Source: Promethearchaeota archaeon
GTDB lineage: Archaea; Asgardarchaeota; Lokiarchaeia; Sigyniarchaeales; SOKP01
Assembly: GCA_016840085.1 (NCBI GenBank)
Contig: JAEOTA010000054.1
Coordinates: 96,001 to 160,000, forward strand
Reading direction: 5' to 3'
Length of the DNA: 64,000 nucleotides
A program made the translations under genes and the position numbers. Shown here in pieces: positions 49,966-61,662 of the stretch. How positions within the stretch are numbered: the stretch's first letter is position 1; each line of letters begins with the position of its first letter. Under the pieces are notes generated by a model. The model had not been told where the DNA came from, searched no databases, and was given only the letters and a program-made list of their open reading frames with translations.

Positions 49966-51298
49966 TCAAAAGATATTATTATCTAAGACTATCGTTTCCT
50001 TCCTATCCGGACCAATAGATATCATAGCTATATCTACTTGAAGCTCTTCTCTGATTGCTTGAAGGTATATTTTCATGGTGTCTGGTAAAGTGTCATATCC
50101 TTTTTCTGAAATTTCTAACCACTTATCTCTACTCCTTTCTTCCCATCCTTCAAATGATTTATAAATTGGTTGGCATTTTTCTATAATCTCATGCTGAATA
50201 GGCCAACTTTCGAGTGTTTCTCCATTTAGTTCATATGCAATACACATCTTAATGGTGGGTATTCCTTGCAGAGCATCCAATAAAGTTATGATAATCTTAT
50301 CAATTCCATTTATCATTATCCCATATTTAATATTAAAGAGATCAATCCATCCGACTCTGCGTGGTCTTCCTGTTACCGTACCGTATTCATGACCTTGTTC
50401 TCTAATTTTTTCAGCAGTATCATTAAATAATTCAGTTGGGAATTTACCCTCTCCCACTCTAGAAGTGTATGCTTTAATTATACCAACTACTTTATTAATT
50501 TTTTTAGGAGGTATTCCTGTTCCAGCAGAAATTCCAAGGGCATTAGCATTTGAAGAGGTACCAAATGGGTAACAACCATGATCTATACATAAGAGATTGC
50601 CTTGAGCTCCCTCGAAAACAACTCTTTTACCGCTATCTATAGCCTTATTTAAGTAATATGCTGTATCGATTACATATGGTTTTAGTTGTTTACCATAAGA
50701 CTTATATTCTTCATAAATAGATTCTAAATCAACGTTCCAGCTCGGATCGTAAACCTGTATTATATCTTTCTTAATTTTATATAATTTCTCTAATTTAGGT
50801 CTTAATACGTCAGGATTGATCAGATCATAAATTCTTAATCCCCAACGAGCCGCTTTATCCGAATATGTTGGTCCAATTCCTCGTTTTGTTGTACCAGCCC
50901 TATATTCTCCCTTTGATTTTTCTTCTAAGCTATCCAACGTGCGATGGAATGGGAAAATAACGTGGGCAGTAGAGCTTAATTTCAAATTAATTTTTTTATT
51001 GAGCTTTTTTAAATTTTCAATTTCTTCAAGAAGAACTTTTGGATCGACCACACATCCATTTGCAATAACACATTCCTTTTCAAGTGGAGCACCACTGGGA
51101 ATTAACTTGAATTTGTATTTAATTCCATTTGCATTGATCGTATGGCCTGCATTATTTCCGCCATTGTATCTTACGACAACATCTGCTTTTTGGGCTAAGT
51201 AATCGACGAATTTACCTTTTCCTTCGTTTGGGGTTAGCATGCGATTTGCCTTGCTAAGCTCCCCAACTTAACCCCATAATTGCTATATTATTACTCAT
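49966..51298 (-). CDS. purA: Adenylosuccinate synthetase, split by a 31-nt intron: complement(join(49966..51227,51259..51298)), 433 aa spliced
   Basis: RYNGGNNAGHT, GTTKRGIGPTY, FEGAQG, EYGTVTGRPRRVGW. Exon 1 gives MSNNIAIMGLSWG; splicing restores WGDEGKGK. Confidence 0.93.
51228..51258 (-). other. BHB-type (relaxed HBh') micro-intron in purA mRNA, 31 nt
   Basis: GGGG-[AG^C]-UUAGCA...UGCUAA-CCCC-[AA^A]; removal joins G+AC to give the catalytic Asp codon. Confidence 0.85.
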
Positions 51299-51523
51299 AA
51301 GTCATTTTCCATTTGACATTTTTTTAGAATTACATCATCTTATTTGATCCAAAAAAGATTATTACATACAATTTATAAAATTTTTGGTAGGTAAGAACGG
51401 ACATAAAAATGATATGAAATGATTTTTATATTCGAATTTTCTTTAAAATTATATCCTTATTTTGATAAACCATTAATAACAATAAAACTCCTTTAAAAAA
51501 ATTTCTTTTAAAATGCTGGAACT

Positions 51524-52444
51524 ATGCCGCAGAAAACAATTTTATTTGATCTCGCTCATAATGAAATGCTAAATATAGAGGATGCTGAATTTTCCGACTT
51601 TCTAAGTCTTTTGAAAAGAATGGACATTAAGATAAAGAAAACTGAGAATGAGCATCTTAAAAAGAATATGTTAAGTAATGTTGATCTCTTAGTAATTGGC
51701 AATCCAATTGATGATTATTTTTCCAGTATTGAAGTTAAATATATTGTTGATTTTGTTCGAAGTGGAGGGGGATTGCTTCTTTTAAGTGAATATGGCGCGG
51801 ACTACCTTCAAAAAACTAATTTAAATGATATTTCAGGAAAATTTGGGATTCTTTTTGAAAAGAATATAATTAAAGAAAGTACTAGGGAGAATCAAAATAT
51901 TTCTAGCATATTACATATTAATAAATTTTCAAAACATCAAATCACTAAAAATCTAAGAGAAATTGTGGTAGGAGGGGCGTGCTCTCTCCTTTTAAGTAAA
52001 GATGCAAAACCAATATTTCAAATTAATAAACAATATGTGTGGTCAGAAGTTTTTAATAGCAGTACTGAACAATGGATTAAAGATGAGGAAGAGACACAAC
52101 AAATTATAGCAGCATTTACAGAATTTGGGCAAGGAAAGGTATTAGCTATTGGAGATATTGATGTATTTACAACTGATTCTAATATTGGAATTAATTCCTT
52201 GGATAATCAAAAATTTTTGCAAAATGCCATAAATTGGTTAATAGAGCCAGTAAAAGAACAAATGGTGATAAGTTTTTTACTTAATCAATTAGGTGATCTT
52301 CAGTATGAAATCAGAGAAACCAATAAAATATTAAATAACATTATTGAAACGATCACAATATTAGAAAAAAGAATAAGTTATTTAGAGAAAAACTCGAGTT
52401 TTCACAAAAAAAGTTTAAAAAATGAAAAGAATAGCGAAAAGTAA
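51524..52444 (+). CDS. GATase-like DUF4350/GldG/IFT52-type (GIFT) domain protein with C-terminal coiled coil
   Basis: ILFDLAHNE, DLLVIGNP...F...E...I.DFV.SGGGLLL, GQGKVLAIGD.D.F, N..FL.NAINWL; heptad tail. Confidence 0.7.
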   Translation: MPQKTILFDLAHNEMLNIEDAEFSDFLSLLKRMDIKIKKTENEHLKKNMLSNVDLLVIGNPIDDYFSSIEVKYIVDFVRSGGGLLLLSEYGADYLQKTNLNDISGKFGILFEKNIIKESTRENQNISSILHINKFSKHQITKNLREIVVGGACSLLLSKDAKPIFQINKQYVWSEVFNSSTEQWIKDEEETQQIIAAFTEFGQGKVLAIGDIDVFTTDSNIGINSLDNQKFLQNAINWLIEPVKEQMVISFLLNQLGDLQYEIRETNKILNNIIETITILEKRISYLEKNSSFHKKSLKNEKNSEK

Positions 52445-52446
52445 TC

Positions 52447-52980
52447 ATGGGAGAAGTCACTTATAAAATTGTCGTTTTTGGAAATGGTGGAGTAGGGAAA
52501 ACTACTCTACTTCATCGTTATATAACAGGGAAATTCTTTTTAGACACAAAAGTGACGATTGGTTTGGACATTGCGGTGAAATACCTGGAAATAGAAGGTA
52601 TTAAGATTACGCTTCAGATATGGGATTTCGGAGGTGAAGATCGGTTTAGATTCCTTTTACCTAATTATACCCGTGGTGCATTTGGAGGAATTTTCATGTA
52701 TGATACTACACGACCTCATAGTTTACGGAATATTGATGAGTGGTTAGAAATATTTAGAAGAGAACAAATTAAAAAATTTCATGCTCCATTAATATTAGTT
52801 GGAGGAAAGTCAGATCTTATAACAAGGAGATTAATTTCTGAAAAAGAAGCAAAAAAAGTAGCAAAATCCTATAAAATTTCTCATCACTTTGAATGTTCTG
52901 CTAAAACGGGTGAAAATGTAGAATTAATATTTGATACTTTAATAAGAACAATTATGAGAAAAGCAAGTCTCCTTAAATAG
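52447..52980 (+). CDS. Rab-like small GTPase
   Basis: GNGGVGKTT, TIGLDI, IWDFGGEDRF, GKSD, ECSAKTG. Confidence 0.9.
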   Translation: MGEVTYKIVVFGNGGVGKTTLLHRYITGKFFLDTKVTIGLDIAVKYLEIEGIKITLQIWDFGGEDRFRFLLPNYTRGAFGGIFMYDTTRPHSLRNIDEWLEIFRREQIKKFHAPLILVGGKSDLITRRLISEKEAKKVAKSYKISHHFECSAKTGENVELIFDTLIRTIMRKASLLK

Positions 52981-53005
52981 AGTTTTTTGAATATATTTCA
53001 GATAT

Positions 53006-53185
53006 CTATTTTATTTCACTACTATATAGAAGATCTAAATGCTTAATTGCCATTTCTTGCGAAATATGATGATTCTTTAATTTTTCAGAAATAGTAGTTA
53101 GGAGATATCTAGGGGTAAATTTATTAATAGTTATATCAAATAAAAGAGCATAATGATTTTTGCCCCTTACTTCAATTTCATCCAC
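53006..53185 (-). CDS. Possible small protein or gene remnant (59 aa, GTG start)
   Basis: Manual translation VDEIEVRGKNHYALLFDITINKFTPRYLLTTISEKLKNHHISQEMAIKHLDLLYSSEIK*. Confidence 0.3.
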   Translation of the reverse strand: MDEIEVRGKNHYALLFDITINKFTPRYLLTTISEKLKNHHISQEMAIKHLDLLYSSEIK

Positions 53186-53356
53186 ACAATTTATCTATAT
53201 ATTTCTACTGTAAAAAAAACCTTTTTCGAGTCAATATGACTCAAGTATTTATCTTTAAAATGTTAGATCTTAATTTGTATTAAGACTATTTTTAATAATT
53301 ATGAGAACTTTACTTTTTTATTAACTTAATTTGAAAAGATTTAGGTATTTAAAAAA

Positions 53357-54802
53357 ATGCCATTAAAAACGCCGGAAGAATATTTAGAGAGTATTAAAAG
53401 ACCTGTAAACTTATACATGTTTGGTGAAAAAGTAAAAGAGTTTTGGAATCACCCAATTATCAAACCTTCGATAAATACTGTTATGAAAATTTATGAATTA
53501 GCACAATTGGATGAATATAAGGACCTCATGACAGCAAAATCACATTTAACTGGTGAAACAATTAATCGATTCACTCACATTCATCAATCTATAGATGATT
53601 TAATTAAAAAAGTACAAATGCAAAGATTACTTGGACAAAAAACTGCGTGTTGTTTTCAGAGATGTGTTGGTTTTGATACCGCTAATGCGTTATACAGTGT
53701 AACTTCCGAAATGGATAAAAAATATGGAACAGATTATCATAACCGATTCAAAAATTATTGGATTGAAGTACAAAATCAAGATTTAATGGTTGATGGGGCC
53801 ATGACAGATACAAAAGGAGATCGAAGTAAAAGACCTAACCAACAATCAGATCTAGATGCATATTTGCATATTGTGGAAGAGAATGATGAGGGTATTGTCG
53901 TTCGAGGCGCAAAAGTCCATCAGACTGGATTTTTAAACTCTCATAGAGCCATTATTATGCCTACTCTTACTATACGTCCTGGAGAAGAAGAATACGCTGT
54001 TAGTTTCGGAATAGATACTAATGCTAAAGGAATCACTTTAGTATATGGAAGGCAATCATGTGATACTAGAAAAATGGAAAAAGGAAAATTAGATATTGGT
54101 AACTTTAAGTATGGAGGTCAAGAGATATTTGTAATCTTTGATAATGTGTTTGTTCCAAAAGATCAAATCTTTATGAAGGGTGAAATTGAATTTTCAGGAG
54201 AATTAGTCAACAGATTTGCTGGTTTTCATAGACAATCATATGGCGGGTGTAAAGTGGGAGTTGGAGATGTGCTCATTGGGGCAGCAGCTTTAATTTCAGA
54301 ATATAATGGGACAGAAAGAGCGTCTCACATTCGTGATAAACTTGTTGAGATGGTTCATTTAAACGAGACACTATATAGTTGTGGAATTGCATGTAGTTCT
54401 TTGGGTTTTCAAAGAGAAGCTGGAAATTATGAAATGGATATGCTACTTGCAAATGTTTGTAAGCAAAATGTTACTCGATTTCCCTATGAAATAGGGAGAT
54501 TAGCTGAAGATCTCGCCGGGGGATTAATATGTACACTTCCTTCTGAAGCAGATTTCAAATCTGAGGAAATTGGTCACTTAATAAGCAAATATCTTTCCAC
54601 ATGTGAAGGAATAGGACCTGATGATCGTTATAAAGTTCTGCGCTTTATTGAAAATTTGACGATGGGCGTTGCTTCAGTAAGCTATCGGACGGAATCAATG
54701 CATGGAGCAGGAAGCCCTATGACGCAGAGAATTATGATTTCACGTCAAGCCAATCTGGAAGAAAAGAAGAAGCATGTAAAAAATATTCTTGATATTGATT
54801 AA
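53357..54802 (+). CDS. abfD: 4-hydroxybutyryl-CoA dehydratase (HpaB/AbfD family)
   Basis: CFQRCVG, AMTDTKGDRS, GAKVHQTG, HRQSYGGCK, ESMHGAGSP. Confidence 0.88.
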   Translation: MPLKTPEEYLESIKRPVNLYMFGEKVKEFWNHPIIKPSINTVMKIYELAQLDEYKDLMTAKSHLTGETINRFTHIHQSIDDLIKKVQMQRLLGQKTACCFQRCVGFDTANALYSVTSEMDKKYGTDYHNRFKNYWIEVQNQDLMVDGAMTDTKGDRSKRPNQQSDLDAYLHIVEENDEGIVVRGAKVHQTGFLNSHRAIIMPTLTIRPGEEEYAVSFGIDTNAKGITLVYGRQSCDTRKMEKGKLDIGNFKYGGQEIFVIFDNVFVPKDQIFMKGEIEFSGELVNRFAGFHRQSYGGCKVGVGDVLIGAAALISEYNGTERASHIRDKLVEMVHLNETLYSCGIACSSLGFQREAGNYEMDMLLANVCKQNVTRFPYEIGRLAEDLAGGLICTLPSEADFKSEEIGHLISKYLSTCEGIGPDDRYKVLRFIENLTMGVASVSYRTESMHGAGSPMTQRIMISRQANLEEKKKHVKNILDID

Positions 54803-54887
54803 ATTGTAAATGTTATAAGAAAATTTTAAACGTACTATAATTTTAATCCAATTAAATAAATAATTCCATTTTCTAAATTGGTAAAAC

Positions 54888-56270
54888 ATGAGTGAGAAAT
54901 CATTTGATGAGATATTTTCTGTTTTTGAAGAGGTTTGCAACAGCTATAAAAGGAGTAATCAATATTTTGACATTCTTTTTGATTCAGAATCATCTGCTCT
55001 TATTACAAAATCACGTACATCAGAAAATATTGTTGTGAATGCAAAGAAATCGGGAATAGTTGCTAGAACATTTACAGGCATATGGAAAGAAATAACTTTA
55101 ACTGAATTTTCAGGCATAAAAAAAATCGAAGAAAAATTGCCTAGAGTTGCAAATATGGGTAAAAATCTTATGGAATTTGAAGGATGGAGTTTAAATGAAG
55201 AAATAAAGCCAAAAATTAATCCACTTGAAGTTCCAATTGATGAAAAAATCAAAAAAGTTAGAGATATTTATGACTATATGATGAAAACTGATGACCGAAT
55301 AATTAATACGGAAGTTAAATACATGGAACAATTTACGGAACGAATTTTTTTTAATAATGAAGGATGTCAATTAAGGCAAGTCATCCCTAGATCAAAACTC
55401 TTTATTATTCCTGTAGCAAAAGAAGGAATTGTAGCAGACTATGATTATTACATTGATACTGGTGAAATTGGCTTTGAAATCTTTGATAAGATTGATAATG
55501 ACACATTAGATAAAACTGCTGAAAAATCTTTGGAGCTGCTCCAAGCAGTATTAGCACCTTCTGGAAAATATCCTGTCATTTTAGACCCTGGTATGACTGG
55601 AATAGTCGCACATGAAAGTTTTGGACATGGTCTTGAAGCAGATCAAGTTATGCGGGATAGAAGTTATTTGAAAGCGAAACTTAATCAACAAGTTGCATCT
55701 GAAATTTGTACAATCTGTGATTCACCTACAATTGATAATGCTTTTGGGACTTACTTTTTTGATGATGAGGGGATCAAAGCAAGTAAAAATCTATTGGTTA
55801 AAGATGGGATATTAAAAGATTTCATATATGATAGAAGAACTGCTTCTGCGTTAAATGCCATCCCAAAAGGTAATGGGAGAAGGGAAAGTTTTGCTCATCC
55901 TGTTCACCCAAGAATGACAAATACTTATTTTGAACCTGGTGATTATTCCCTAGAAGAAATGATTAAAGGAATCAAGTATGGTGTGTTTTTGGTTCATGAA
56001 TATTTCGGTATGGAAGATCCACTTGGAGGAGGGATGCAAAACACTTCTAAGAAAGGCTATTTAATTGAGAATGGAGAAAAAACCAAGATATTAAAGGCGG
56101 TAACACTAAGTGGTCATGTATTGGAGACATTACCCAAAATTGATGCAATTAGTAGGGGACCAATTGAAATAAATGGAGGGACATGTGGCAAAGGTGATGA
56201 AGATAATGTTCCTGTAGGGAGCGGAGGTACTTACGTTCGAATTAAAGAAGCATTAATTAGTCCAGGGTGA
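54888..56270 (+). CDS. tldD: TldD family metalloprotease subunit
   Basis: AHESFGHGLEAD, FFDDEG, PRMTNT, GTCGKG...VPVGSGG. Confidence 0.9.
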   Translation: MSEKSFDEIFSVFEEVCNSYKRSNQYFDILFDSESSALITKSRTSENIVVNAKKSGIVARTFTGIWKEITLTEFSGIKKIEEKLPRVANMGKNLMEFEGWSLNEEIKPKINPLEVPIDEKIKKVRDIYDYMMKTDDRIINTEVKYMEQFTERIFFNNEGCQLRQVIPRSKLFIIPVAKEGIVADYDYYIDTGEIGFEIFDKIDNDTLDKTAEKSLELLQAVLAPSGKYPVILDPGMTGIVAHESFGHGLEADQVMRDRSYLKAKLNQQVASEICTICDSPTIDNAFGTYFFDDEGIKASKNLLVKDGILKDFIYDRRTASALNAIPKGNGRRESFAHPVHPRMTNTYFEPGDYSLEEMIKGIKYGVFLVHEYFGMEDPLGGGMQNTSKKGYLIENGEKTKILKAVTLSGHVLETLPKIDAISRGPIEINGGTCGKGDEDNVPVGSGGTYVRIKEALISPG

Positions 56271-57607
56271 TATTAAAGATGACAAATGAAAAATTTGATT
56301 TAATTGAAGAAACTCTTAAAGCGAAAAATATTGAGGAATATGAAATTTATTTCATTGAAAAAGAATTCTATGAAACAATGTTCTTAAAAAGTGAACCAGA
56401 AGTAGAAAGAGAAATAGAAGATTTTGAGTATTTTATCCGAATCCTTACTCAAAAAGGAGATCAAACGGGAGTAGGTGTTGTTAAAGGAAATTCTATGGAT
56501 TCTAAAGAATTAGGAAAAAATATAGATACTTGCGTTTTGCTTTCTAAGAATAATATTACTTCAAAATATCGGTTTCCAGAAAAGAGACCAATTTCAAAAA
56601 TTACTACAGCTGACAACGCTATATTGAAAGATCCGATTGGTATAAAAAATGATCTATGTGAAGAGCTAATAAGCCTAGTTAAAGAACAAAAAGGAGTAGT
56701 TCCAACTTTTGGTCGGTTAAGGTTACATATTAAAAATAGCTTGTTAAGAAATAGTAATGAAGTAAATCTTGATTCCACAAAAACATTCTTGTATGTAGAA
56801 TATTCCTTAAAGGCACAAAGAAATGGGAAATTATCTGAATATTGGAACACAGAATATTTCAAAGAAAAAGAACATTTAAATTTTAAGAAAAGAGTGGTTG
56901 AATGGGCAAAAATTGCAAAAGATACTTTAATAGCAGAACCACCTAAACCTAATAAGGAAGCAATTGTTATATTTACACCTCATGTTTTAAAGGAAGCAAT
57001 TATTCCCGTGATTGGATTTCATGCTTCAGGACAGTCTTTTAGCGAGGAGACTTCTGCTTACAATATAAATAATGAGGTGGCTTCTAAAGAAATCACAATT
57101 ATAGATGATGGACTCCTTGAAGGCGGATTAAGCTCTAACCCATGGGATGGTGAAGGAAATCCTCATCAGAAAACAGTAGTGATCAAAAATGGTATCTTCC
57201 AAAAACGATTGTATGATCAAAAATATGCTAAAATAAACGGTGAAGATTCAACTGGAAACGGGATAAGAAGCAATTTTGGTGGAATTAATAATGGGATTAG
57301 CAATTTCCAAATTATTCCTGGAACCACATCTTTAGATGATATGATTTCAGATATAAAAGAAGGTTATTATATAGAGAAATTTTCATGGTTGAACCCTGAA
57401 GAATTATCAGGATATTTCGGCGCAGAAATAAGAAATGGCTATTATATTAAAAATGGTGAATTTCAGAATCCAATAAAACTTGGAAATGTGAGTGGTAATG
57501 TTTTAGAAATGATGAAAAATTGTCTACATATTTCAAAAGAAACAGAATTTTCAGAGAATTCTCTCTTTCCATATATGTGTTTCTCTAATTTAACCGTGTC
57601 ATTTTAA
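56267..57607 (+). CDS. pmbA: PmbA/TldE family subunit
   Basis: IDDG..PWDGEG, STGNG, no HExxH; overlaps tldD (GTGA). Confidence 0.85.
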   Translation: MILKMTNEKFDLIEETLKAKNIEEYEIYFIEKEFYETMFLKSEPEVEREIEDFEYFIRILTQKGDQTGVGVVKGNSMDSKELGKNIDTCVLLSKNNITSKYRFPEKRPISKITTADNAILKDPIGIKNDLCEELISLVKEQKGVVPTFGRLRLHIKNSLLRNSNEVNLDSTKTFLYVEYSLKAQRNGKLSEYWNTEYFKEKEHLNFKKRVVEWAKIAKDTLIAEPPKPNKEAIVIFTPHVLKEAIIPVIGFHASGQSFSEETSAYNINNEVASKEITIIDDGLLEGGLSSNPWDGEGNPHQKTVVIKNGIFQKRLYDQKYAKINGEDSTGNGIRSNFGGINNGISNFQIIPGTTSLDDMISDIKEGYYIEKFSWLNPEELSGYFGAEIRNGYYIKNGEFQNPIKLGNVSGNVLEMMKNCLHISKETEFSENSLFPYMCFSNLTVSF

Positions 57608-57659
57608 AATTAATATTAATCTTTTTTATTTAAGACCTTAAAAAAAAGTAGAATAAGAA

Positions 57660-58889
57660 TTAATTATCTTTTTCAATCTCAACTTTAATTAAGTTGTAAT
57701 TTCTTGTTCCTAAGCCTATTTCTTCAGCTGCTTTTAATTGTGTTTCCCAGTGTTTTGATTCTTTTCCATCTTGATTAAAATTCATCTCTCTGGACTGAGG
57801 ATCATAACGAGGGATGTGTGAAAACCATTCAAAAGGTCCTTGCATTGGTATATTTTTTACTTCCGAAAGAATTGAATGAGGGTTAATTGAAGATTTATGT
57901 ATAAGATCTACGGTAGCTTGATCCAAGGCAACGGGATCTAAGGACGCTAAAACCCCAATATCTGGAACAAACGGGATGTCAGAACCTCCTGTACAATCAC
58001 ATTGATAGGTTATATCTATAGCAAAATTAATGTAAAAAATCTTATCTTTTCCGAAATAATCTACTACTCCCTTGGCGTTGTCAACCATCTGAGTAATAAA
58101 TTCAACACGCGGAACGTGACCTATATTAATTACTTCATCTTTACATACAGAAGCACACATATAACAAAATTTACACAATTCTTCGTTAAAACTTAATTTA
58201 TTGTCATCATCTTTGGTCAAAGCATGTGTAGGACATATATTAATACAATTCTTGCATTCAAGATTACAAGAATCAAAATTAAACTCGAAAGTTTTCCCTG
58301 TATGTGCTTCAACCTTACCTCCCTTAGAAACACATCCGATTCCAAGATTTTTTATTGAACCTCCGAAACCGGCACTTGCATGTCCTTTAAAATGAGTTGC
58401 CATAATCATATAATCAAATTTTCTTAAGCGTCCTGCTACTAACACTTCATTAAAACGTTTCCCATTAATCTTCTGAATTTCAATATCAGTTCCATCCTCC
58501 CCATCTAACATTAAAATTGGTGCTCCCATAGTTTCTTCTGTAAAACCATGAATTAAGGCAGTTTTTAAATATTCAGTTTCAGTTGCTCTACCCGAATATT
58601 CTGTATGAACCCCAGAGACACTTTCTGGTACACCCCATCCACATGATTCTGCTAAAGATGGAACAGCGCCTAAATCTTTAGTATAATCGCATAAAAATCG
58701 TAAATAACTTGGACGGAGATATCGAGTATTCTCTAATGCTCCAAAATGTGTCTTAATTACTATTTTATCGCCACTTTTAATCCTTTGCTCAATTCCAAGC
58801 TTCTTCAATGCTAATGGACCTTTAAATTTACTCATACTTTGCTCATGAGAGTGAGTTCGAGCTGTAAAATAAAATACATCTGATTTCAT
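57660..58889 (-). CDS. DUF362 family Fe-S protein with ferredoxin insert
   Basis: IKTHFG, THFKGH...FGGSIKNLGIGC, two 4Fe-4S-type Cys motifs, CDC...DIGVLASLDPVALD. Confidence 0.88.
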   Translation of the reverse strand: MKSDVFYFTARTHSHEQSMSKFKGPLALKKLGIEQRIKSGDKIVIKTHFGALENTRYLRPSYLRFLCDYTKDLGAVPSLAESCGWGVPESVSGVHTEYSGRATETEYLKTALIHGFTEETMGAPILMLDGEDGTDIEIQKINGKRFNEVLVAGRLRKFDYMIMATHFKGHASAGFGGSIKNLGIGCVSKGGKVEAHTGKTFEFNFDSCNLECKNCINICPTHALTKDDDNKLSFNEELCKFCYMCASVCKDEVINIGHVPRVEFITQMVDNAKGVVDYFGKDKIFYINFAIDITYQCDCTGGSDIPFVPDIGVLASLDPVALDQATVDLIHKSSINPHSILSEVKNIPMQGPFEWFSHIPRYDPQSREMNFNQDGKESKHWETQLKAAEEIGLGTRNYNLIKVEIEKDN

Positions 58890-59045
58890 TTCTTTTCACT
58901 AATTAAAACTTCTCTATAATTCATGTAAATAATTAGGGTTTATAATTTAAGGCAAAAAATATTTTAACACTAATTAATTCTATTAATATAATAAATAAAT
59001 ACAATAATAACTCAGAAAAAAAAAGAAAAATAGGACGGTATTTTA

Positions 59046-59304
59046 ATGGCCCGCTGTCCAGAAAGTTTTTTTGTATACACAAATTAACATGGATTGCGGA
59101 GGGTTTATGAAATACCATTCAGCTATAAAACAAGTCGTCTGCCAATCATGTGGACTTTCTTTAACGAGGCATGAATTAGATCGTTATTGGAAAAAGGTGA
59201 GGAATGAAAATATTTCGGAGGTAGATGATACGCAGCAAAAGAAAAATCGACGTAAAGAATGGCTTGAATGGTATTCTTCTTCCAAATCTGATAAAGAATA
59301 TTAA
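59046..59304 (+). CDS. Small Zn-ribbon protein split by a 31-nt intron: join(59046..59063,59095..59304), 75 aa spliced
   Basis: Spliced product MARCPECGGFMKYHSAIKQVVCQSCGLSLTRHELDRYWKKVRNENISEVDDTQQKKNRRKEWLEWYSSSKSDKEY with complete CxxC...CxxC. Unspliced frame stops at TAA 59085. Confidence 0.85.
59064..59094 (+). other. BHB-type (hBHBh') micro-intron, 31 nt
   Basis: Exon helix CUGU/GCGG (extended by CCC/GGG), central helix CCAG/AUGG (one G-A), bulges AA^A and AU^U, intron hairpin GUU..UUUGU-AUAC-ACAAA..AAC. Confidence 0.83.
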
Positions 59305-59378: not shown

Positions 59379-60590
59379 TTAATTACCAAGCATTCTTTCA
59401 ATAATATCTTCTAATAATTCTGCTAATTTTTTTGCGGGAATATCTAATAAAGTAATTTCTAGATGCCTTCCTCGAGTAGCATCTTCAATTCTCACCGTTT
59501 TTGAAGCAATAATTTTAAGTTGGTTAAGTTGGCGTATATATTTTCTGAAACTCATTTTTACATGCGGTTCTACTAAATAACTCTCACATATTACCTTATA
59601 TTCTTCGTACGCATCATCAACAAGAGTAAAAGGTGTATCGGAGTTTATCAATGATCTCGTAATTCCATACAAAGCTAACAGCTCTTGATCTTTTAATTCG
59701 TCAATTATATCATTTCTAAATGTAGGATATACATCATCTGAAGCTTCTCTAATTATATCAGCTGTAATTAAGTTCAATTCTTCTTTATCGCAATATGACC
59801 CACTTTTTCTTAATATTTCAATTCCATGTCTCATGTTTTTATGGTCCACAACTATCTGAGAAACCATAGTTAATAGTTCTTCATCAATAACATATTCTTT
59901 AAGTGCTAATTCGCTGCGGTATTTTAAAATTTGCATTGCTTCATCAAATTCATAGGGTTCAAGTTTAATTCTCTCGTTCAATCTGCTTAAAATTCTTTCA
60001 TTTTCAATCCGCATCCAATCTTTACTTCTACAAATTAATAGCAATGATAATTTTGCGTTTTGATGTCCAAAAGTTTCTGCAATGTCAAGAAATGCTAAAA
60101 CATCATCAGGATTTAAAAGATGAATCTCATCTATTATCAATAACATATAACCTTGTTCCCGAATTAGTTGGGAGAGAATTAACTTTAAGGCTTCGTCGTC
60201 GCTAAAGCCTCTACCGCTTCCATGCTGATATTTAGCGAGAAGCTCTCTGATTATCTTACTTTTAGAACGAAAATTGATACAATTATAATATTCAATGAAG
60301 AGATTTACATCTTTTTCAGTTGCAATTGTTCTAAAATTTTTGCCGAAATATCTCGCAGTGCAAGTTTTTCCAACACCGCCTTTTCCCAAGATAAGACAAT
60401 TTATAGAAGGCTGCTCTTCTTCTTCCAAAATTCTCCTATAATTAAAAATTAATGTTTTTAGAGCGTCATCTCGACAATATAACTTGTCCGGCACCCAACT
60501 TAAATCAAGAGTTCCAGACATTCGAAAAACTGATTTTTTCCCAAATTCCTTTCTAAAAGCATCCTCGTCCATAATAAATCGAGTAAGCAA
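59379..60590 (-). CDS. cdc6: Orc1/Cdc6 family replication initiator
   Basis: WVPDKLYCRD, GKGGVGKT (Walker A), IIDEIH (Walker B), ILSRL, C-terminal wHTH. Confidence 0.9.
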   Translation of the reverse strand: MLTRFIMDEDAFRKEFGKKSVFRMSGTLDLSWVPDKLYCRDDALKTLIFNYRRILEEEEQPSINCLILGKGGVGKTCTARYFGKNFRTIATEKDVNLFIEYYNCINFRSKSKIIRELLAKYQHGSGRGFSDDEALKLILSQLIREQGYMLLIIDEIHLLNPDDVLAFLDIAETFGHQNAKLSLLLICRSKDWMRIENERILSRLNERIKLEPYEFDEAMQILKYRSELALKEYVIDEELLTMVSQIVVDHKNMRHGIEILRKSGSYCDKEELNLITADIIREASDDVYPTFRNDIIDELKDQELLALYGITRSLINSDTPFTLVDDAYEEYKVICESYLVEPHVKMSFRKYIRQLNQLKIIASKTVRIEDATRGRHLEITLLDIPAKKLAELLEDIIERMLGN

Positions 60591-60714: not shown

Positions 60715-61632
60715 TTAATCCATTTTATTTAAGGGATGCATCTGGGAGTATGCTTCTTTCAGCTTAGTTATATCATTTTTGGCGTAAATCCGTGTAGTAT
60801 TTGGATTTGAATGGCCTAAAATATCTTGTAATTCGCTAATATCCATTCCTGAACGTCTAAGATGAGTTGCCCCCGTATGTCGGAATATGTGTGGGGTGAC
60901 GATCTTAGAATCTGGAAACCCACATTTATCTTTTATGGATTTTATATCAGATTGAACAACGCGAGGATATAATTTCTGACTTCGAGTATTTACCAATAAA
61001 TAATCTTCAGAATCGTAATAAATTCTGTCATTGAGAACATCCTTAATAAGTTCTAAAGTCCTGTGATCTACAGGCACTATCCTCTCTTTATTTCCTTTTC
61101 CGCGAAGTCTGATATATTCTTTCTCAAAATCAATATCTCGAATTTTAATGTTACATAACTCACTTACTCTTGCCATCGTCGAGTATAATAACCTTACAAT
61201 TAAATAATAACGTTGGCTTTTACGAGAATTGAATAGCATTCTATCTTTTAATTTTTTAAAGATTAATTCTATATCAGACAAATCTAAAAATTTGGGTAAG
61301 CTTTCTTCAAGTTTAATCTTCGGTGTTTTAATCGTACTCATAGGATCTTTCGAAATGAATTCGTTAAGAACAAGAAATTTGAAAAATGAACGTAATGAAG
61401 CAATTTTTCGACTTATACCTTTTTTCGTGTAATTCATTTCATTTAACTTTTTCAAAAAAAATCGAATCTTTTGACGAATAAGCGGAGAATTTAATGAGAG
61501 ATCTCCTATAATATTAATAAATTTCTGAAGATCATAACGATATGCTTTGATGGTTGAAGAAGAACAGCCCTCCTCGACTTCTTTGGCTATTAAGAAGTCT
61601 TCTATAAAATCAGAAATTTTAGAGGTTTCCAT
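60715..61632 (-). CDS. xerA: XerA-like tyrosine recombinase (probable start ATG 61632; ORF track extends to 61662)
   Basis: TIKAYRYDL, LRSFFKFL, ARVSE, GKGNKER, PHIFRH, LGH, TTRIY: complete R-K-H-R-H-Y set. Confidence 0.85.
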   Translation of the reverse strand: METSKISDFIEDFLIAKEVEEGCSSSTIKAYRYDLQKFINIIGDLSLNSPLIRQKIRFFLKKLNEMNYTKKGISRKIASLRSFFKFLVLNEFISKDPMSTIKTPKIKLEESLPKFLDLSDIELIFKKLKDRMLFNSRKSQRYYLIVRLLYSTMARVSELCNIKIRDIDFEKEYIRLRGKGNKERIVPVDHRTLELIKDVLNDRIYYDSEDYLLVNTRSQKLYPRVVQSDIKSIKDKCGFPDSKIVTPHIFRHTGATHLRRSGMDISELQDILGHSNPNTTRIYAKNDITKLKEAYSQMHPLNKMD

Positions 61633-61640
61633 AATAAGAG

Positions 61641-61662
61641 ATGTATTATCATGATAATACAT
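61641..61662. promoter_or_regulatory. Perfect 22-bp palindrome upstream of xerA (putative operator)
   Basis: ATGTATTATCA|TGATAATACAT, 9-30 bp upstream of the probable xerA start. Confidence 0.5.

What the first reader, a model, noticed from the sequence alone, without database searches (positions are those of the whole stretch)
51228..59094. Candidate mRNA micro-intron system (tRNA-endonuclease-type BHB splicing) in an Asgard archaeon
Seen: two unrelated genes ~8 kb apart each carry an insertion of exactly 31 nt with no primary-sequence similarity to each other. Both lie within the first 14 codons, interrupt a functional motif, introduce a premature stop, and fold into a hairpin closed by a 4-bp helix flanked by 3-nt bulges. 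Cutting after the 2nd nucleotide of each bulge restores frame and motif in both. Established: this is the geometry cut by the archaeal splicing endonuclease EndA and ligated by RtcB; the cbf5 intron of Crenarchaeota is the classic mRNA example. Inference: two cases in 64 kb suggest many more genome-wide, invisible to ORF callers, making splicing an obligatory and possibly regulatory step for core genes in a eukaryote-related lineage. Whether this is already reported for Lokiarchaeia needs a literature check.
Basis: partly seen in the sequence, partly recalled or inferred. Interest (0 to 1): 0.96.

Follow-up and report, generated by a model that had tools for sequence, protein, structure and literature searches.

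The report
tRNA-type mini-introns in Asgard mRNAs
Two genes in this window, and at least 16 in this Asgard (Lokiarchaeia-type) archaeon's genome, are broken by ~30-base inserts shaped like the introns cut by the archaeal tRNA-splicing enzyme, so these cells very probably must splice many messenger RNAs, something the papers I could search document inside an archaeal coding sequence for only one gene; no spliced RNA has been seen yet.

Summary
Confirmed and extended. purA (insert 51258-51228, minus strand) and a 75-aa Zn-ribbon gene (59064-59094) each carry a 31-nt insert with a premature stop. Removing it at the bulge-helix-bulge (BHB) cut sites restores GDEGKGK and CPEC. Relatives either lack the insert or keep it at the same nucleotide, at 30/31/32 nt (purA, 18 sequences) or 28/29/31 nt (Zn, 13). 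That excludes a single frameshift and an assembly error. The purA intron stem shows compensatory changes.

A motif-free comparison with a congener found 21 frame-breaking inserts. All 16 of 28-38 nt have BHB geometry (17/21 overall, against 2.4-4.7 expected). This genome holds at least 18 candidates in 16 genes, including uS3 and an EF-2 paralog (two each), Rpo10, RNase HII, E1 and E2. Congeners encode a two-subunit EndA with the broad-specificity loop; RtcB is present.

Caveats: no RNA evidence; catalytic EndA subunit not found in this assembly; Zn central helix is 3/4; the purA BHB is not the minimum-energy fold here.

The mechanism is known (crenarchaeal cbf5); genome-scale use was not found in the papers searched. 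This scan already noted the same phenomenon in at least 23 other genomes.

The parts
51259..51298 (-). purA (adenylosuccinate synthetase) exon 1: 40 nt, codons 1-13 plus the G of Asp14
   Evidence: Unique deletion restoring WGDEGKGK; intact orthologues begin M..IA.IGLSWGDEGKGK
51228..51258 (-). 31-nt BHB (HBh') intron in purA, phase 1, splitting the Asp codon of the GDEGKGK loop. In-frame TAG at 51256-51254. An internal ATG at 51240 gives the mis-called 424-aa ORF.
   Evidence: same site in 18 sequences (30/31/32 nt), absent in about 40
51258..51264 (-). purA 5' half of the motif: central helix strand GGGG (51264-51261) and bulge AG^C (51260-51258)
   Evidence: helix 98.5% paired over 17 sequences
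51227..51233 (-). purA 3' half of the motif: central helix strand CCCC (51233-51230) and bulge AA^A (51229-51227)
49966..51227 (-). purA exon 2 (spliced protein 433 aa); single copy in the genome
   Evidence: PF00709 E=9e-156, profile positions 10-416 only; one match in own genome
59046..59063 (+). Zn-ribbon gene exon 1 (MARCPE, 6 codons)
59064..59094 (+). 31-nt BHB intron, phase 0, inside the first CxxC. Central helix 59058-61 with 59089-92 (3/4, G.A mismatch); bulges AA^A (59062-64) and AT^T (59093-95); outer helices 59054-57/59096-99 and 59065-67/59086-88; TAA at 59085-87.
   Evidence: same site in 13 of 30 congeners (28/29/31 nt)
59095..59304 (+). Zn-ribbon gene exon 2 (spliced protein 75 aa; TFIIB/TFIIS-like Zn ribbon of unknown function, conserved across the class). 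Gene callers report a 65-66-aa product from ATG 59107 that lacks two Cys.
   Evidence: 54 of 61 relatives

Best explanation
These are pre-mRNA introns of the archaeal tRNA-intron type, used genome-wide in one Lokiarchaeia family.

Steps:
(1) The gene is transcribed with the ~30-nt insert [inferred].
(2) Four exon bases pair with the intron's 3' end and the intron folds back as a roughly 9-bp stem with a 4-6-nt loop, giving a relaxed BHB/HBh' motif [predicted; covariation shown for purA].
(3) The heterotetrameric (alpha-beta)2 EndA, whose CSL loop admits relaxed motifs, cuts after the 2nd base of each bulge [enzyme genes shown in congeners; cleavage inferred from cbf5 and tRNA biochemistry].
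(4) RtcB joins the exons, restoring the frame and the catalytic motif [gene shown; ligation inferred].
(5) Unspliced transcripts terminate early, because every intron frameshifts or holds a stop, including all 30-nt in-frame ones [shown; selection for this as a fail-safe is inferred].

Introns are gained and/or lost repeatedly: presence is patchy, and different genomes carry different introns.
For: 1. BHB cut sites coincide with the junction fixed independently by protein homology. The junction is unique for purA, the second EF-2 intron and the NMO-like gene. For Zn, only the BHB register gives the orthologues' CPEC.
2. Same-site inserts of 30/31/32 nt (purA) and 28/29/31 nt (Zn), all ending in premature stops, with divergent interiors but kept pairing.
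3. purA intron stem: 6 of 9 pairs have changes on both sides; 0/500 shuffles reach the observed values; slid controls give 34-50% paired against 85%.
4. The Gly13 third position is A (first bulge base) in 18/18 intron-bearing sequences but 9/40 intron-free ones (related sequences, not independent).
5. Motif-free census: 17/21 frame-breaking inserts are BHB against 2.4 or 4.7 expected, and all 16 of 28-38 nt are. Non-disruptive indels in the same pipeline: 4/35.
6. Affected genes include single-copy essential ones (uS3, Rpo10, purA; uL11 in the congener). They are interrupted at the same model position in many family members and intact in other families.
7. A catalytic-type EndA paralogue is found in 35 of 36 congeners. 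The copies inspected have the Tyr/His/Lys triad and the CSL Lys/Arg (PMC3241643). RtcB is present.
8. The genome's own tRNA genes carry ~30-nt inserts, many at non-canonical positions, so a relaxed-specificity EndA is needed anyway.
Against: 1. No spliced cDNA was seen. Two metagenome scans for the spliced purA junction gave only intron-less lineages or nothing.
2. The catalytic EndA alpha subunit was not found in this 89-contig assembly; only the His-less beta subunit was.
3. In this genome the purA BHB is 3.9 kcal/mol above the MFE fold, with pair probability 0.06.
4. The Zn intron has a mismatched central helix and no significant covariation.
5. A motif-only genome scan could not tell true from decoy geometry, so the motif alone is weak evidence; the case rests on homology.
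Confidence: 0.88

Rival explanations
1. Translational recoding: ribosomes frameshift or hop over the insert (programmed frameshifting, or T4 gene 60/byp-like bypassing at a hairpin).
For: The inserts are short hairpins followed by stops. Three of 23 have a junction repeat that could act as a take-off/landing pair.
Against: Lengths at one site fall in all three frames (purA 30/31/32) or two frames (Zn 28/29/31). Many junctions fall inside codons: the purA Asp codon is split G|AC and exists nowhere contiguously. 20 of 23 lack a matched landing codon. Pairing geometry sits exactly 2 nt from each junction.
Confidence: 0.03
2. The inserts are real but not removed: the genes are pseudogenes, or are expressed as truncated proteins from internal starts (such as the 424-aa purA from ATG 51240).
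For: Gene callers find plausible downstream ORFs. No RNA evidence exists, and EndA alpha is missing from this assembly.
Against: The exons are as conserved as intact orthologues on both sides. Single-copy uS3, Rpo10 and uL11 cannot plausibly be lost. Truncated forms would lack the purA Asp or two Zn ligands. Structure is kept while sequence diverges across 18 sequences.
Confidence: 0.03
3. Removal happens by another route: DNA-level excision or polymerase skipping of a hairpin (mini mobile elements), or RNA splicing by an enzyme other than EndA/RtcB.
For: The uniform ~30-nt hairpin shape and patchy distribution suggest a mobile-like origin.
Against: There are no target-site duplications (junction repeats 0-2 nt in 21 of 23), each insert is single-copy, and there is no shared sequence family. 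The helix is formed with exon bases in BHB spacing, which a DNA element would not need. All DNA assemblies seen keep the insert.
Confidence: 0.05
4. Assembly or sequencing artefact.
For: The genome is a MAG with 7.6% contamination.
Against: The same insert is in a Logan assembly and a JGI metagenome, and homologous inserts lie at the same nucleotide in 17 other genomes.
Confidence: 0.01

Closest known systems
cbf5 pre-mRNA intron of Crenarchaeota (Watanabe 2002; Yokobori 2009, PMC2738675)
   Same: Short intron (the part of that paper's table I read lists 16-38 bp) with a relaxed BHB, cut after the 2nd bulge base by hetero-oligomeric EndA. It lies between the 1st and 2nd base of the catalytic Asp codon, exactly like the purA intron here. 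Patchy gain and loss.
   Different: One gene at one site in Crenarchaeota. Here at least 18 introns in 16 unrelated genes of one genome, some genes with two, in an Asgard family. Splicing is proven for cbf5 and not here. That paper says introns in other protein genes were only predicted.
Haloferax volcanii HVO_1309 5' UTR BHB intron (Schwarz 2020, PMC7714728)
   Same: EndA-cleaved BHB intron in an mRNA.
   Different: In the untranslated leader, 46 nt, does not break a reading frame. The paper names cbf5 as the only other mRNA example.
Asgard tRNA introns (bioRxiv 10.64898/2026.10.13.758758)
   Same: Repeatedly gained short inserts at BHB-competent sites, (alpha-beta)2 EndA, missed by standard annotation, arrival route unknown.
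   Different: tRNA genes only (0 occurrences of 'mRNA' or 'cbf5'). Its focal classes are Jordiarchaeia and Atabeyarchaeia.
Eukaryotic IRE1/RtcB splicing of XBP1/HAC1 mRNA (mentioned in PMC13149111; details from my own knowledge)
   Same: Spliceosome-independent removal of a short frameshifting intron by an endonuclease plus a tRNA-type ligase.
   Different: Different nuclease and stem-loop signal, one regulated target; no homology shown.
Paramecium ultra-short 3n introns enriched in in-frame stops (PMC5014332)
   Same: Tiny introns in which in-frame lengths carry stop codons.
   Different: Spliceosomal, and coupled to nonsense-mediated decay; no such decay pathway was tested here.

Membership tests
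Archaeal BHB (EndA/RtcB) introns | 4-bp central helix with two 3-nt bulges on opposite strands plus at least one outer helix (hBHBh', HBh' or BHL) | tested here: met
   purA 4/4 plus h' (17 of 18 sequences 4/4); Zn 3/4 plus h and h'; 23/23 listed candidates have at least 3/4 and at least 2 bp of h'. The relaxed rather than strict form is common.
Archaeal BHB (EndA/RtcB) introns | Cuts after the 2nd base of each bulge give the functional product | tested here: met
   Coincides with the unique homology-defined junction in purA, and gives CPEC as in 17/17 intact Zn orthologues
Archaeal BHB (EndA/RtcB) introns | Structure conserved while sequence varies | tested here: inconclusive
   Met for purA (7 pairs with changes on both sides, 0/500 shuffles). 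For Zn the pairs are conserved but covariation is not significant.
Archaeal BHB (EndA/RtcB) introns | Host encodes an EndA able to cut relaxed motifs ((alpha-beta)2 with CSL) | tested here: inconclusive
   Catalytic-type paralogue in 35/36 congeners, with triad and CSL Lys/Arg in those inspected; only beta found in this assembly
Archaeal BHB (EndA/RtcB) introns | Host encodes RtcB ligase | tested here: met
   PF01139, full length, E=1e-166
Archaeal BHB (EndA/RtcB) introns | Spliced RNA or excised (circular) intron detected, or in vitro cleavage | not testable with these tools
   No RNA data; metagenome junction scans were uninformative
Translational bypassing elements (T4 gene 60 / byps) | Matched take-off and landing codons in phase 0 giving the orthologous peptide | tested here: not met
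   Absent in purA, Zn and 20 of 23
Miniature mobile DNA elements (MITE/IS footprints) | Target-site duplication and multiple similar copies | tested here: not met
   Junction repeats 0-2 nt in 21/23; each insert single-copy; no sequence family
Group I/II self-splicing introns | Ribozyme core of hundreds of nt | tested here: not met
   Lengths are 28-38 nt

The most novel reading that the evidence does not exclude
One Lokiarchaeia family runs a genome-scale, spliceosome-independent mRNA splicing system. Tens of ~30-nt EndA/RtcB introns per genome interrupt essential genes (ribosome, RNA polymerase, EF-2 paralog, ubiquitin E1/E2/Ubl, purine synthesis), some genes have three exons, introns turn over rapidly, and in-frame introns are selected to carry stops as a fail-safe. 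This would be a prokaryotic parallel to eukaryotic intron-rich gene architecture.
Probability: 0.7. Interest if true: 0.93.

Novelty: new variant of a known kind. Interest (0 to 1): 0.86.

Why it matters
If true, obligatory mRNA splicing of many core genes exists in the archaeal phylum closest to eukaryotes, carried out by the tRNA-splicing machinery rather than by a spliceosome. It would turn the single cbf5 oddity into a lineage-wide gene architecture. It bears on how coupled transcription and translation can tolerate introns, a long-standing question for the origin of the nucleus, and on how introns are gained. It also means many Lokiarchaeia gene models are truncated, split or missed (for example 66-aa Zn-ribbon entries, 424-aa purA, a ubiquitin-like protein without its Gly-Gly), which affects marker-gene phylogenomics and metabolic reconstruction. 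It is directly testable with existing sediment metatranscriptomes and a simple in vitro cleavage assay.

Tried and rejected
1. Motif-only genome scans: true geometry gave as many ORF-joining candidates as decoys (12,835 against 12,440 and 12,852; 135 against 129-146). Not usable alone.
2. Search for introns shared by this genome and G006: the 59 hits were operon junctions or gene ends by inspection; none accepted. Sensitivity was limited.
3. Metagenome scans for the spliced purA junction: 0 hits, then 31 hits whose Loki members best matched intron-less genomes. Not evidence either way. Short ENA contigs carrying full-length Zn-ribbon proteins could not be shown to be RNA-derived.
4. Shared sequence family among introns, or with this genome's tRNA genes: not above shuffled.
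5. A 39-nt 'insert' at the uS3 start: rejected, explained by a TTG start. Other 10-21 nt and 47-119 nt hits were rejected as start-site or repeat artefacts.
6. First version of the split-gene scan timed out and was rerun.
8. The literature search for the role of the purA Asp gave nothing. That it is the catalytic Asp13 of E. coli PurA is my own knowledge.
9. The tree search did not finish its careful mode; the quick tree is used.
Full report
Observation. On the minus strand, purA starts at 51298. Read directly it stops after 14 codons. Among all 10-59-nt deletions only one, 51258..51228 (31 nt), restores WGDEGKGK, and it splits the Asp14 codon G|AC. The downstream part matches PF00709 from profile position 10 onward, and purA is single-copy. 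On the plus strand a small gene starts at 59046. Deleting 31 nt restores a CxxC...CxxC Zn-ribbon protein of 75 aa, conserved in 54 of 61 relatives. Both inserts form a BHB-like motif with flanking exon bases. purA has GGGG/CCCC, bulges AG^C and AA^A, and a 6-bp intron stem, but no exon-side helix. Zn has CCAG/ATGG (one G.A mismatch), bulges AA^A and AT^T, and both outer helices. The purA insert is also in a Logan assembly and in a JGI metagenome of a variant strain, so it is not an assembly error.

Organism. The closest purA relatives are Promethearchaeota/Lokiarchaeia MAGs, including Loki_b31, Loki_b32 and the SOKP01 record. The window carries a Rab-like GTPase and a GIFT-domain gene.

Comparative evidence at the two sites. 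The purA insert is present at the same nucleotide in 11 of 30 genus members, this genome included, and in 18 distinct sequences overall, against about 40 intact. Its lengths are 30, 31 and 32 nt, all three frames, and every version stops translation within 11 codons. The central helix is 4/4 in 17 of 18. In the alignment, 6 of 9 intron-stem pairs change on both sides, and 85% of cells pair against 34-50% in slid controls, with 0/500 shuffles as high (related sequences inflate this test). The Zn insert is in 13 of 30 genus members (28, 29, 31 nt), and the 17 intact ones all read CPEC, which only the BHB register produces. Its pairs are conserved but covariation is not significant. This genome and G024 break the innermost central pair, and the other 11 break the outermost. 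On a purA protein tree the intron needs at least 7 changes, though well-supported branches force only 2. The sets of genomes carrying the purA, Zn and Rpo10 introns differ.

Genome-wide test. I compared this genome with 2.4 Mb of congener G006 without using any RNA motif: nucleotide and protein alignments were searched for inserts that break the frame between well-matching flanks. Of 21 such inserts, 17 have at least 3/4 central pairs and at least 2 intron-stem pairs. Shuffling the inserts predicts 2.4 (P 6e-15), and moving them to random coding sites predicts 4.7 (P 6e-10); both nulls keep the same register freedom. All 16 of 28-38 nt pass. Harmless in-frame indels from the nucleotide pipeline pass in 4 of 35.

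The 13 found this way in this genome lie in purA, the Zn ribbon, an EF-2 paralog (two, one in its P-loop), uS3 (two), Rpo10, an AMP/thymidine phosphorylase, an acyl-CoA ligase, a nitronate-monooxygenase-like enzyme, an E1-like enzyme (GxGxxG), a small GTPase and an unknown protein. These gene names are my reading of the peptides, except uS3, Rpo10 and purA, which are supported by family searches. Five more come from the motif scan or from earlier notes that I checked, with weaker homology support: RNase HII (DEAG^RG), a ferredoxin-like protein, a ubiquitin-like protein whose terminal Gly-Gly needs splicing, an E2 and an FAD oxidoreductase. That makes 18 in 16 genes, a lower bound. G006 has five others, including uL11 and an UppS-like gene. 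Most have the same build: 1 bulge base, a stem of about 9 bp, a 4-6-nt loop, 4 helix bases and 2 bulge bases, the first of which is A in 22 of 23.

Distribution. Rpo10 is cut off at model position 49-50 in 8 genus members and is whole in the other families searched. uS3 is interrupted in about a dozen genomes of two genera of the family and not in the 23 matched genomes of other families. RNase HII has a stop-containing +30 or +45 insert in 10 of 16 family genomes from three genera; no main copy among about 100 genomes of the other 30 families of the phylum has a stop inside. purA is intact in five genomes of other families. With these markers the phenomenon was found only in this family; other genes in other lineages were not tested.

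In-frame introns carry stops. All ten 30-nt homology-defined introns contain an in-frame stop. In the one pipeline that would also have seen stop-free ones, the count is 7 with stops against 0 without, where shuffles give about 0.54 each (joint about 0.01). In uS3 and RNase HII every lengthened match in the family has stops, of differing types. This resembles the 3n-intron bias in ciliates (PMC5014332) and suggests a fail-safe. That reading is inference.

Machinery. RtcB is present. This assembly holds one EndA paralogue lacking the catalytic His, and the catalytic subunit was not found. However, 29 of 36 congeners have two or more paralogues and 35 have the higher-scoring catalytic type, so an assembly gap is the likely reason. 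The copies inspected keep the Tyr/His/Lys triad, and the G024 protein aligns best with A. pernix EndA (3P1Z), including the loop Lys44/Arg46. Lys44 is required for broad specificity (PMC3241643). Most of the 16 tRNA genes I could recover here are about 30 nt too long, often in the D-arm, so a relaxed EndA is needed in any case.

Rivals. Frameshifting cannot handle three lengths at one site. Bypassing lacks matched codons in 20 of 23 cases and cannot build a split codon. Pseudogenisation is implausible for uS3, Rpo10 and uL11. DNA elements lack duplications and copies. Against my reading: there is no RNA evidence; the purA BHB in this genome is disfavoured by a competing helix with codons 8-10, though it is well populated in most relatives; and the motif alone is not discriminating.

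What is known. The papers searched give cbf5 as the only spliced archaeal coding sequence, with other cases merely predicted (PMC2738675), plus one 5' UTR intron in Haloferax (PMC7714728). A 2026 preprint on Asgard introns treats tRNA only. Searches for Asgard or Promethearchaeota mRNA introns found nothing, but the library lacks most subscription papers. This scan's own notes report the same phenomenon in at least 23 genomes; they are unchecked AI notes and are not counted as evidence.

Verdict. A real feature, very probably EndA/RtcB-spliced mRNA introns (0.88). It is a known mechanism at a scale and in a lineage not found in the literature searched: a new variant of a known kind, interest 0.86.

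Noticed in passing
window 51268-51277 (minus strand, purA codons 8-10): An upstream GGGGTTA stretch can pair with the intron's 3' end and out-compete the BHB helix (3.9 kcal/mol; also unfavourable in G024). Could limit or regulate splicing, and a translating ribosome would melt it.
   Followed up: partly
G000 C79:3618-4223 (L061): The only EndA paralogue in the assembly lacks the catalytic His; the alpha subunit was not found. It lies just upstream of a PIN/ATPase-like ORF.
   Followed up: partly
G000 C4 minus 16302 and 16173; C85 plus 142161 and 142249: EF-2 paralog and uS3 each have two introns, leaving middle exons of 99 and about 57 nt.
   Followed up: yes
G000 C78 (E1 56854 minus, E2 52861 plus) and C19 minus 6047 (Ubl): Three ubiquitin-pathway genes all carry 30-nt candidates; the Ubl needs splicing to get its C-terminal Gly-Gly.
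   Followed up: partly
G006 C1 plus 1222999: Possible 26-nt insert near the start of a histone-like gene with poor BHB score (2/4); not accepted.
   Followed up: no
whole genome: ARAGORN finds only 13 tRNA genes, several miscalled; a crude scan finds 16, most about 30 nt too long. The tRNA set is probably hidden by introns or unassembled.
   Followed up: partly
window 59379-60590 and 60715-61662 (minus): Cdc6/Orc1 gene (Pfam) converging on the Zn-ribbon gene, next to a XerA-like tyrosine recombinase (my reading of the sequence).
   Followed up: no
window 51524-52980 (plus): IFT52 GIFT-domain protein followed by a Rab/Ras-like GTPase (eukaryotic-signature type), divergent from purA.
   Followed up: no
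window 53357-57607 (plus): A 4-hydroxybutyryl-CoA dehydratase/HpaB-like gene and a TldD/PmbA-like pair (my reading of the sequence, not tested).
   Followed up: no
L293 and L298 (purA loci): Their inserts look unrelated in sequence to the other purA introns at the same nucleotide, as do the two Zn intron types; possibly independent gains at one favourable site.
   Followed up: partly
G061, G062, G076 RNase HII: Match is 45 nt longer with stops, against 30 nt in two other genera: a longer intron variant, DNA not inspected.
   Followed up: no
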